DNA from: a virus
Taxonomy: Duplodnaviria; Heunggongvirae; Uroviricota; Caudoviricetes
Length of the DNA: 15,307 bases
Strand: one strand, 5' to 3'
IMG/VR virus record: IMGVR_UViG_2617270953_000003
Location: 1-15,307 of that record
Below are positions 6,755 through 8,584 of this stretch, in pieces (within the stretch, counting starts at the first letter, position 1; the number at the start of each line of letters is the position of its first letter). Below the pieces are notes generated by a model. The model saw only the letters and a program-made list of their open reading frames with translations, was not told the origin of the DNA and did not search any database. The translations under genes were made by a program, and so were the position numbers.

Positions 6755-6817
6755 AGTATCACCGCCAGTGGTATTTATGTCAACACCGCTAGAGATAATT
6801 CATCACCGCAGATGGTT
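6755..6817 (-). promoter_or_regulatory. OL1-OL2-OL3 operators and pL promoter (lambda immunity type)
   Basis: 17-mers tatcaccgccagtggta (6757-6773), caacaccgctagagata (6781-6797), catcaccgcagatggtt (6801-6817); on the minus strand -35 TTGACA (6778-6783) and -10 GATACT (6755-6760). Confidence 0.85.
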
Positions 6818-6902
6818 ATCTGTATGTTTTTTATATGAATTTATTTTTTGCAGGGGTGCATTGTTTGGTAGGTGAGAGATCTGAACTGCTATGTTTAGTG
6901 AG

Positions 6903-6932
6903 TTGTATCTATTTATTTTCAAATAGATACAA
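6903..6932. repeat. perfect 12-bp inverted repeat with 6-bp spacer (ttgtatctattt-attttc-aaatagatacaa)
   Basis: Arms 6903-6914 and 6921-6932 are exact reverse complements; AT-rich; lies between the tImm-like terminator and OL3. Confidence 0.6.
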
Positions 6933-6970
6933 TTGGTTATGTGTTCTTGGGTGAGGGGGATCGTGAGGCA

Positions 6971-6995
6971 AAGAAAACCCGGCTCTGTGGCCGGG
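6971..6995 (-). terminator. tImm-like intrinsic terminator ending the cI operon
   Basis: Stem cccggc/gccggg (6978-6983, 6990-6995), 6-nt loop, TTTTCTT tail on the minus strand; begins about 10 nt after the stop at 7004. Confidence 0.6.
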
Positions 6996-7003
6996 AATAA
7001 CAT

Positions 7004-7382
7004 TTAGGAATCAAGGTCAGGTAGCATGATTTTCTCAATCAACGTCAATGCCCTTTGGTCTCGTTCAGCAAAATATTTAGGAGCGTACTGAGGCAGCCAC
7101 ACTTCGTTGAAGTATTGTTTGAAATCTGCAATATTCGTTTGGGTATAGACGTACCGGGAATGTCCGGCCATCTGGGTACTCATGGTTATATGTTGGGAAT
7201 GTCTTCGGCTCACCCCCCCGGTTGTCACGGAGCCATTGCGAGAAAACCCTACCCTCTGAAATATCAGGGACCATTTTTTCTGGCAGCGTATATCCGGCCT
7301 GTTCAAGTGGCGCAACCAAGTTAAACGTCAGTTCATTAAGCATAGAAAAGTGCGTATGAGGAACTCTGCCTCGGTTTGTCAT
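7004..7382 (-). CDS. rex-slot ORF split across two frames: frame A 7077-7382 (101 aa) and frame B 7004-7327 (+1 offset); possible frameshifted gene
   Basis: Two overlapping minus-strand ORFs offset by +1 share a C7 tract (7213-7219; G7 on the coding strand) and an A6/T6 tract (7275-7280). Frame B ends 10 nt before the terminator; frame A has a poor RBS. Confidence 0.35.
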
Positions 7383-7421
7383 ATACCGCTTAAGGTGGAT
7401 AGGGAGTTCGGCAGGCGCTCT

Positions 7422-7763
7422 TTAACCTGACATCCACTCACGCACCCATCTCGATACTTGCACTGCAAATTTTGGAGATAGCCACTGAGCTAAATTAATT
7501 GCGATGTCTGGATGAACCCAAGTCCCTTGATTCTCTGCTCTTCCGCCTTTAAATGATTGAATTAACTCCGATATGGGAATCCCCATATCGCGTGATAATT
7601 CATCAAAAAAATCTTGTGTTGTTTTTAGTCGTGTATAGTCAGCAAGTAGCTTCCCCGCAGACTTGCACATCGCGGTGGCATTGATGTATCCGTCTTTGGT
7701 GCGAAGATGGATGACTTCTCCATCAACTTCTCTAGCGATTAATGCAAGTTGAAATTGTGTCAT
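7422..7763 (-). CDS. KilA-N domain protein (113 aa), directly downstream of cI
   Basis: Motifs DGYINATAMCK...GTWVHPDIAINLAQWLSPKFAVQVSRWV are typical of the KilA-N (APSES-like) DNA-binding domain; AGGA RBS; starts 31 nt after the cI stop. Confidence 0.75.
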   Translation of the reverse strand: MTQFQLALIAREVDGEVIHLRTKDGYINATAMCKSAGKLLADYTRLKTTQDFFDELSRDMGIPISELIQSFKGGRAENQGTWVHPDIAINLAQWLSPKFAVQVSRWVREWMSG

Positions 7764-7794
7764 AAATCATCCTATTACGTGAAAAATAAAACAA

Positions 7795-8508
7795 TCACCC
7801 AAACGTCTCTTCTGGCCACTGGCTGGCGATAACTTTCCCCACAACGGAACAACTCTCATTGCATGGGATCATTGGATATTGCGGGTTTAGTGGTTGTAGA
7901 AACACCTGACCGCTATCCCTGATTAGTTTCTTGAAGGTAAACTCATCACCTCCAAGTCTGGCTATGCAGAAATCACCTGGCTCAACAGCCTGCTCAGGGT
8001 CAACCAGAATTAACATTCCGTCAGGAAAGCTTGGCTTGTAGCCTGTTGGTGCGGTCATGGAATTACCTTCAACCTCAAGCCAGAATGCAGAATTACTGGC
8101 TTTTTTGGTTGTGCTTACCCATTTCTCCGCATCGCCTTTGGTAAAGGTTCTAAGCTCAGGCGAGAACATCCCGGCTTGAACATGAGAAAAAACAGGGTAC
8201 TCATACTCACTTCTAAGTGACGGCTGCATACTAACCGCTTCATACATCTCGTAGATTTCTCTGGCGATTGAAGGGCTAAATTCTTCAACGCTAACGTTGA
8301 GAATTTTTGCAAGCAATGCGGCGTTATAAGCATTTAATGCATTGATGCCATTAAATAAAGCACCAACACCTGACTGCCCCATCCCCATCTTGTCTGCGAC
8401 AGATTCCTGGGATAAGCCAAGCTCATTTTTCTTTTTTTCATAAATAGCTTTAAGGCGACGTGCGTCCTCAAGCTGCTCTTGTGTTAACGGTTTCTTTTTT
8501 GCGCTCAT
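7795..8508 (-). CDS. cI: CI repressor, lambda immunity type (237 aa)
   Basis: Protein matches my recall of lambda CI over essentially its whole length, with a few substitutions; start abuts OR3. Confidence 0.95.
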
Positions 8509-8518
8509 GCATTAAATC

Positions 8519-8584
8519 TATCACCGCAAGGGATAAACTTCTAACACCGTGCGTGTTGACTATTTTACCTCTAGCGGTGATAAT
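8519..8584. promoter_or_regulatory. OR3-OR2-OR1 operators with divergent pRM (minus) and pR (plus) promoters
   Basis: OR3 tatcaccgcaagggata (8519-8535), OR2 taacaccgtgcgtgttg (8542-8558), OR1 tacctctagcggtgata (8566-8582); pR -35 TTGACT (8556-8561) and -10 GATAAT (8579-8584) with 17-bp spacing. Confidence 0.9.

What the first reader, a model, noticed from the sequence alone, without database searches (positions are those of the whole stretch)
6781..8582. OL2 and OR1 share the same substitution relative to the lambda operators as I recall them
Both OL2 (caacaccgcTagagata, 6781-6797) and OR1 (tacctctAgcggtgata, 8566-8582) read CTCTAGCGGTG where I recall lambda having CTCTGGCGGTG, while OL1 in this window keeps CTGGCGGTG. 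The same change at two operators would alter CI/Cro affinity in parallel and could mark a natural immunity variant or virulence-type operator mutations. The lambda reference bases are from memory.
Basis: partly seen in the sequence, partly recalled or inferred. Interest (0 to 1): 0.35.

Follow-up and report, generated by a model that had tools for sequence, protein, structure and literature searches.

The report
Common natural variants of lambda operators
Two repressor-binding sites of this lambda-type prophage differ from textbook lambda by the same single base, but the change is a widespread, nearly neutral natural polymorphism and not a mutation that lets the phage escape its repressor.

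Summary
Against lambda J02459, OL2 (6781-6797) has C>T at 6790 and OR1 (8566-8582) has G>A at 8573. Both turn CTCTGGCGGTG into CTCTAGCGGTG, and OL1 keeps the lambda sequence.

The "virulence-type mutation" reading fails.
- OR1-A is not rare. It is in 177 complete E. coli genomes against 175 with lambda's G. It is in 45 of 73 IMG/VR contigs and in seven isolated wild phages, including HK97 and mEp234.
- OL2-T is a minority prophage allele: 17 genomes against 217, and 13 of 82 IMG/VR contigs. No deposited phage genome has it.
- The changed base is the position next to the operator centre in the weakly contacted half-site. The published OR1 measurement for this exact substitution is +0.4 kcal/mol for CI, about 2-fold.
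- The vir and constitutive OR1 mutations lie at 38007 and 38009 (2.5-3.7 kcal/mol), not at 38005.
- No promoter hexamer is touched, and the CI and Cro DNA-reading residues equal lambda's.

In a CI-anchored sample, this same CCAG/CTAG site is the main common polymorphism in OL1, OL2 and OR1 alike. It is an ordinary allele of a known system, so interest is low.

The parts
6757..6773 (-). OL1, identical to lambda
   Evidence: Fuzzy match to the annotated lambda OL block.
6781..6797 (-). OL2 with C>T at 6790 (CCAG>CTAG). This is half-site position 8 of the non-consensus half, 7 nt upstream of the PL -35 hexamer.
   Evidence: Allele counts.
6801..6817 (-). OL3 with T>C at 6801 (position 1 of the consensus half)
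   Evidence: Co-occurs with OL2-T in most carriers. The equivalent OR1 substitution A19-T23>G-C costs +0.4 kcal/mol.
6755..6783 (-). PL promoter (TTGACA, 17-nt spacer, GATACT); hexamers unchanged
7795..8508 (-). cI repressor gene, 232/237 identical to lambda CI (T3A, K71N, R129K, D139N, S157Y). Residues 4-70, which include the helix-turn-helix, are identical.
8519..8535 (+). OR3, identical to lambda
8542..8558 (+). OR2, identical to lambda
8566..8582 (+). OR1 with G>A at 8573 (CTGG>CTAG). This is position 8, next to the central base pair, in the PR spacer 6 nt upstream of the -10 hexamer.
   Evidence: Allele counts.
8556..8584 (+). PR promoter (TTGACT, 17-nt spacer, GATAAT); hexamers unchanged
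8609..8809 (+). cro, 64/66 identical to lambda Cro (M12I, V55I)

Best explanation
The window carries a standard lambda-specificity immunity region (PL/OL1-3, cI, PRM, OR3-1/PR, cro) in a wild allelic form. The two matching substitutions fall on the base pair next to the operator centre, in the non-consensus half-site of OR1 and of OL2. The published work read here shows this is the half-site where the CI N-terminal arm was not resolved in the crystal structure, and where this exact substitution barely changes CI affinity. They are therefore tolerated, near-neutral standing polymorphisms. CI still represses PL and PR through cooperative binding at OL1-OL2 and OR1-OR2, and immunity specificity stays lambda's. 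At most, each site is weakened about 2-fold, which would slightly tune the switch. Shown here: the sequence differences, allele frequencies, haplotype combinations and promoter positions, plus published values for the CI affinity change and the vir coordinates. Inferred: that OL2-T behaves like the measured OR1 substitution, that Cro binding is little affected, and that repression in vivo is essentially unchanged.
For: (1) The exact substitution OR1 G10-C32>A-T has an experimental ddG of +0.4 kcal/mol for CI (Sarai & Takeda data tabulated in PMC2194778). That is about a 2.1-fold change in Kd, against 2.5-3.7 kcal/mol at C12, G13 and G14.
(2) OR1-A is in 177 complete E. coli genomes and OR1-G in 175. 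It is in 45 of 73 IMG/VR contigs and 60 of 80 CI-anchored loci. It is also in seven isolated phages, among them HK97, mEp234 and HK106, whose records come from the study of wild phages with lambda immunity specificity.
(3) OL2-T is in 17 E. coli chromosomes against 217 with OL2-C, in 13 of 82 IMG/VR contigs and in 23 of 66 CI-anchored loci.
(4) In the CI-anchored sample, the only within-operator polymorphisms seen in more than 3 loci are OL1 position 10, OL2 position 10 and OR1 position 8 (the same half-site position, CCAG/CTAG), plus OL3 positions 1 and 11. In the OR region, 3 of 51 operator positions are polymorphic against 11 of 49 non-operator positions (Fisher p=0.02).
(5) lambda vir v3 is at 38007 and vC1/se109b at 38009; none is at 38005 (coordinates).
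(6) The variants lie outside the -35 and -10 hexamers of PL and PR.
(7) CI residues 4-70 match lambda, and Cro differs only by M12I and V55I.
Against: The Cro affinity data for this position (Takeda et al. 1989) could not be read, so 'little effect on Cro' is inferred. The CI value was measured in OR1 only, so transfer to OL2 is by analogy (half-sites TATCTCTG and TACCTCTG). No isolated, plaque-forming phage in the INPHARED collection carries OL2-T, so its compatibility with a fully working switch rests on prophage occurrence alone. Other OR1 transitions with similarly small ddG (T9>C 0.3, C8>T 0.5) are not polymorphic. Plain neutrality toward CI therefore does not fully explain why this one position varies at three operators.
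Confidence: 0.8

Rival explanations
1. Virulence-type (operator-constitutive) mutations: the paired changes lower CI affinity at OL and OR enough for the phage to escape lambda immunity, as in lambda vir.
For: The changes do lie inside two operators that control PL and PR, as vir mutations do. No isolated temperate phage with OL2-T is on record.
Against: The known OR1 vir/constitutive sites are 38007 and 38009, not 38005. The measured ddG is +0.4 kcal/mol. OR1-A is carried by wild phages classed as lambda-immune and by about half of the lambda-type prophages in E. coli. OL2-T is found in integrated prophages in 17 chromosomes, with intact cI in 4 of the 5 inspected.
Confidence: 0.03
2. Adaptive tuning or co-evolution: the CTAG alleles are selected to weaken CI occupancy slightly (for example a lower induction threshold). 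They might be matched to the CI N-terminal-arm change Thr3>Ala that travels with OR1-A.
For: The same position is polymorphic at three operators while other low-ddG positions are invariant. OL2-T is associated with OR1-A (22:1 against 29:14, Fisher p=0.012). CI residue 3 Ala goes with OR1-A (44 A/Ala, 17 G/Thr, 11 G/Ala, 1 A/Thr).
Against: Residue 3 and OR1 position 8 are only about 70 bp apart, so linkage explains the association, and 12 recombinant contigs exist. Seven of the eight OL1/OL2/OR1 allele combinations occur, which argues against a required combination. The samples are not phylogenetically independent. The arm on the non-consensus half was not resolved in the crystal structure (PMC2194778 methods).
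Confidence: 0.12
3. Mutational hotspot: all three polymorphic sites are C(C/T)AG. This is the sequence context in which E. coli very-short-patch (Vsr) repair converts T:G mismatches to C:G (own knowledge), so recurrent CTAG<>CCAG changes arise independently at each operator. This would complement the near-neutral explanation rather than replace it.
For: The contexts are CGC[C/T]AGAG (OR1 and OL2) and CGC[C/T]AGTG (OL1). A fourth CTAG/CCAG polymorphism, a synonymous one, occurs inside cI.
Against: There is no detectable enrichment in the cI-OR-cro region. One of 4 synonymous candidate sites is polymorphic, against 46 of 300 background synonymous sites. The sample is far too small to decide.
Confidence: 0.15

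Closest known systems
Bacteriophage lambda immunity region (OL1-3 / cI / OR3-1 / cro), reference J02459
   Same: Same operator number, order, spacing and orientation. OL1, OR2 and OR3 are identical. PL and PR hexamers are identical. CI is 98% and Cro 97% identical.
   Different: Single-base changes in OL2 (6790), OL3 (6801) and OR1 (8573). The OR3-OR2 spacer has AT>CT. The PR +1 base and the bases just upstream of the cI start codon differ. rexAB is replaced by a disrupted KilA-N gene.
Wild lambda-immunity phages HK97, HK106, mEp234, CL707, HK244, HK542 (Degnan et al. 2007 records EF120455-61) and PhiR5_2
   Same: They carry the identical OR1-A allele and the CI T3A change. PhiR5_2 matches 97.5% across the whole immunity region, including the KilA-N slot.
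   Different: None of them carries OL2-T or OL3-C.
lambda vir operator mutations (v2 in OL, v1 in OR2 at 37979, v3 in OR1 at 38007) and vC1/vs387 (38009)
   Same: Single-base changes inside CI operators at both OL and OR.
   Different: The positions differ: the window's OR1 change corresponds to 38005. The energetic cost is about 0.4 against 2.5-3.7 kcal/mol, and the window's alleles occur in stable prophages.

Membership tests
Lambda immunity group (imm-lambda) | Three 17-bp CI/Cro operators at OL and three at OR, with lambda sequence, order and spacing | tested here: met
   61-bp OL block with 2 mismatches and 64-bp OR block with 3 mismatches to lambda, no indels.
Lambda immunity group (imm-lambda) | CI and Cro with lambda DNA-recognition residues | tested here: met
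   CI is 232/237 identical, with residues 4-70 unchanged. Cro is 64/66 identical.
Lambda immunity group (imm-lambda) | Functional homoimmunity: no plating on a lambda lysogen, and repression of lambda by this CI | not testable with these tools
   Inferred from isolated lambda-immunity phages sharing OR1-A. No isolate with OL2-T is available.
Virulence-type (operator-constitutive) mutations | The change is at a position where substitution strongly reduces CI binding | tested here: not met
   Published ddG is +0.4 kcal/mol for OR1 G10>A. vir and vC mutations map to 38007 and 38009.
Virulence-type (operator-constitutive) mutations | Incompatible with stable lysogeny or immunity | tested here: not met
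   The alleles are present in chromosomal prophages: 177 genomes for OR1-A and 17 for OL2-T.

The most novel reading that the evidence does not exclude
The CTAG alleles at the centre-adjacent position of OL1, OL2 and OR1 may be a selected, combinable set of 'tuning knobs'. Together they would set CI/Cro occupancy, and so the spontaneous-induction rate, in wild lambda-immunity prophages. On this reading laboratory lambda is an atypical all-CTGG extreme.
Probability: 0.1. Interest if true: 0.4.

Novelty: already known. Interest (0 to 1): 0.1.

Why it matters
It matters mainly as a caution. Textbook lambda is not the population consensus at OR1, so differences from the reference should not be read as mutations. 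The one mildly useful by-product is a natural-variation map of the six operators. It shows that the centre-adjacent base of the non-consensus half-site is the tolerated position in OL1, OL2 and OR1. This agrees with the biochemical asymmetry of CI binding, and it gives ready-made natural alleles for testing the robustness of the lambda switch.

Tried and rejected
1. I tried to read Degnan et al. 2007 and the two 1989 PNAS substitution papers directly. None is held. The CI value therefore comes from the secondary tabulation in PMC2194778, and the Cro value is missing.
2. I tested whether CYAG contexts are generally hypervariable in cI-OR-cro, as a Vsr hotspot would predict. The result was inconclusive (1 of 4 against 46 of 300).
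3. I looked for a full-length match to the window in complete E. coli genomes. There is none: the best match covers 59%, so the element is mosaic. IMG/VR contig 2585427774_000002 matches 99.99% over window 3679-15307.
4. I considered Dcm methylation sites (CCWGG) as the cause. None of the three operator contexts is CCWGG, so I rejected this from the sequence.
5. I considered creation of a 6-bp restriction site (XbaI, NheI or SpeI) by the CTAG alleles. The contexts GCTAGA and GCTAGT match none of them, so I rejected this too.
6. The first pattern-based IMG/VR survey was biased, because it required exact matches outside three N positions. I replaced it with a CI-anchored sample. That sample is itself biased, toward CI proteins closest to the window's.

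Full report
**What is there.** The window contains a lambda-type immunity region. On the + strand it reads as follows:
- N gene (6160-6645, - strand; Pfam N_peptide).
- PL with OL1 (6757-6773), OL2 (6781-6797) and OL3 (6801-6817).
- A t_imm-like terminator (6995-6978).
- A KilA-N gene in the slot where lambda has rexAB (7004-7763).
- cI (7795-8508, - strand).
- OR3 (8519-8535), OR2 (8542-8558) and OR1 (8566-8582) with PR.
- cro (8609-8809) and cII (8947-9243).

The operator coordinates come from matching the annotated operators of lambda J02459.

**Check of the observation.** The quoted sequences are present. CTCTAGCGGTG occurs exactly twice in the window, at 6784-6794 (-) and 8569-8579 (+), with 0.01 expected by chance.
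- The differences are C>T at 6790 and G>A at 8573.
- Read in the same orientation, both are the eighth base of the non-consensus half-site (TATCTCTG>A in OL2, TACCTCTG>A in OR1). This base is immediately next to the central base pair.
- OL1, OR2 and OR3 are identical to lambda.

**How common the alleles are.** I used short queries centred on the variant base, so that every 28-nt megablast seed had to contain it.

| Survey | OR1-A | OR1-G (lambda) | OL2-T | OL2-C (lambda) |
|---|---|---|---|---|
| 5,426 complete E. coli genomes | 177 genomes | 175 genomes | 17 genomes | 217 genomes |
| IMG/VR pattern scan | 45 of 73 contigs | 28 of 73 | 13 of 82 contigs | 69 of 82 |
| Deposited phage genomes | HK97, HK106, mEp234, CL707, HK244, HK542, PhiR5_2 | not searched collection-wide; of the seven fetched phages, lambda and HK544 | none | not searched collection-wide; all seven fetched phages |

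Several of the OR1-A phage records (EF120457-61) are the "immunity region" entries from the study of wild phages with lambda immunity specificity, and they annotate this site as operator oR1 bound by Cro and CI. OR1-A is therefore the usual wild allele, and laboratory lambda carries the other common one. OL2-T is a real but minority allele, so far seen only in prophages and uncultivated viral contigs.

**Unbiased look at operator variation.** The pattern scans required exact matches elsewhere, so I also retrieved 80 IMG/VR loci through the CI protein and scored every operator position. Five within-operator polymorphisms were seen in more than three loci:
- OL1 position 10 C>T (19 of 66)
- OL2 position 10 C>T (23 of 66)
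- OR1 position 8 G>A (60 of 80)
- OL3 position 1 T>C (15 of 66)
- OL3 position 11 G>A (7 of 66)

The first three are the same half-site position and the same CCAG/CTAG change, in the three operators that share CTGGCGGTG. Seven of the eight OL1/OL2/OR1 combinations occur. OL2-T is enriched on OR1-A backgrounds (22:1 against 29:14, Fisher p=0.012). However, OL2-T with OR1-G exists (L021), and the samples are not independent. In the OR intergenic region, 3 of 51 operator positions show a transition polymorphism against 11 of 49 non-operator positions (p=0.02). The operators are therefore under constraint, and this one position is the tolerated exception.

**Effect on binding.** PMC2194778 tabulates the Sarai & Takeda (1989) measurements for every single substitution of OR1.
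- OR1 position 8 is G10-C32 in PDB 1LMB numbering. Its change to A-T costs +0.4 kcal/mol, about 2.1-fold in Kd by the formula given in that paper.
- Substitutions at C12, G13 and G14 cost 2.5-3.7 kcal/mol.
- The same paper notes that the N-terminal arm on the non-consensus half was not resolved in the crystal structure. This is consistent with weak reading of that base.
- The OL3 T>C change corresponds to A19-T23>G-C, also +0.4 kcal/mol.
- The Cro dataset (Takeda et al. 1989) is not held, so the effect on Cro is unmeasured here.

**Comparison with vir mutations.** PMC3349717 states that lambda vir is mutated at 37979 (OR2) and 38007 (OR1), and that se109b (identical to vC1, same site as vs387) is at 38009. 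OR1 spans 37998-38014, so these are OR1 positions 10 and 12, in the strongly read consensus half. The window's change corresponds to 38005. The virulence reading is therefore not supported.

**Promoters and proteins.** The OR1 variant lies in the PR spacer, 6 nt upstream of GATAAT. The OL2 variant lies 7 nt upstream of the PL TTGACA. All hexamers equal lambda's.
- CI differs from lambda at T3A, K71N, R129K, D139N and S157Y. Residues 4-70, which contain the helix-turn-helix, are unchanged.
- Cro differs at M12I and V55I.
- CI T3A lies in the N-terminal arm and travels with OR1-A (44:1 against 11:17). The two sites are only about 70 bp apart, so linkage is the simplest explanation.

**Why the same position three times.** Near-neutrality toward CI explains tolerance. 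It does not explain why other low-cost transitions (T9>C 0.3, C8>T 0.5) are invariant; those may matter for Cro or for the promoters. All three sites are C(C/T)AG, a context I know as a secondary substrate of Vsr very-short-patch repair. A test within cI-OR-cro was too small to decide (1 of 4 against 46 of 300). This remains an open minor point.

**Verdict.** The interpretation as a natural variant is right in a weak sense, and the virulence or altered-immunity interpretation is not supported. This is an ordinary wild allele set of a very well-known system.

Noticed in passing
window 7004-7763 (- strand): The slot between OL and cI, which holds rexAB in lambda, carries a KilA-N domain gene (Pfam PF04383). 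Relative to the intact 253-aa gene of phage PhiR5_2 it is disrupted: a premature stop after codon 113 (near 7421) and a 2-nt deletion near 7130. The same disrupted form recurs at 99.8% identity or more in six IMG/VR contigs, so it is a real lineage and not a sequencing error.
   Followed up: partly
window 8591: The base corresponding to the lambda PR transcription start (A, 9 nt after OR1) is C here (GCATGTAC>GCCTGTAC). E. coli prophages L009-L012 share this. The effect on start-site choice is unknown.
   Followed up: no
window 8509-8511: The bases just upstream of the cI start codon (the PRM +1/discriminator region for the leaderless cI mRNA) read AATGCATG instead of lambda's AACGTATG. Several prophages share this.
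   Followed up: no
window 8500-8502 (cI codon 3): CI Thr3>Ala, in the N-terminal arm that reads the operator centre, is strongly associated with OR1-A across contigs (44 A/Ala, 17 G/Thr, 11 G/Ala, 1 A/Thr). Close linkage (about 70 bp) probably explains it, but this was not tested as co-evolution.
   Followed up: partly
L009 (E. coli RM10410 prophage) OL1; IMG/VR loci L021, L040, L091: OL1 also occurs with the same CCAG>CTAG change (TATCACCGCTAGTGGTA). The polymorphism therefore recurs at all three operators that share CTGGCGGTG.
   Followed up: yes
window 9505-9513 (- strand): A further CTGGCGGTG 9-mer lies inside the replication gene. The surrounding 17-mer ATAAACTGGCGGTGTAT lacks the conserved TAT of the consensus half-site, so it is probably a chance partial match and not an operator.
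   Followed up: partly
window 9424-11740: The replication module is not lambda O/P. It is an unassigned 296-aa protein followed by a DnaB-like helicase (Pfam DnaB and DnaB_C). An ERF-family recombinase is at 4123-4758. The element is a mosaic with no full-length match in complete E. coli genomes.
   Followed up: no
window 7206-7222: A homopolymer C run inside the KilA-N remnant differs between otherwise identical contigs: a 1-nt indel in L085 at 7212 and C/A at 7213 in others. This could be a slippage-prone tract or an assembly error.
   Followed up: no
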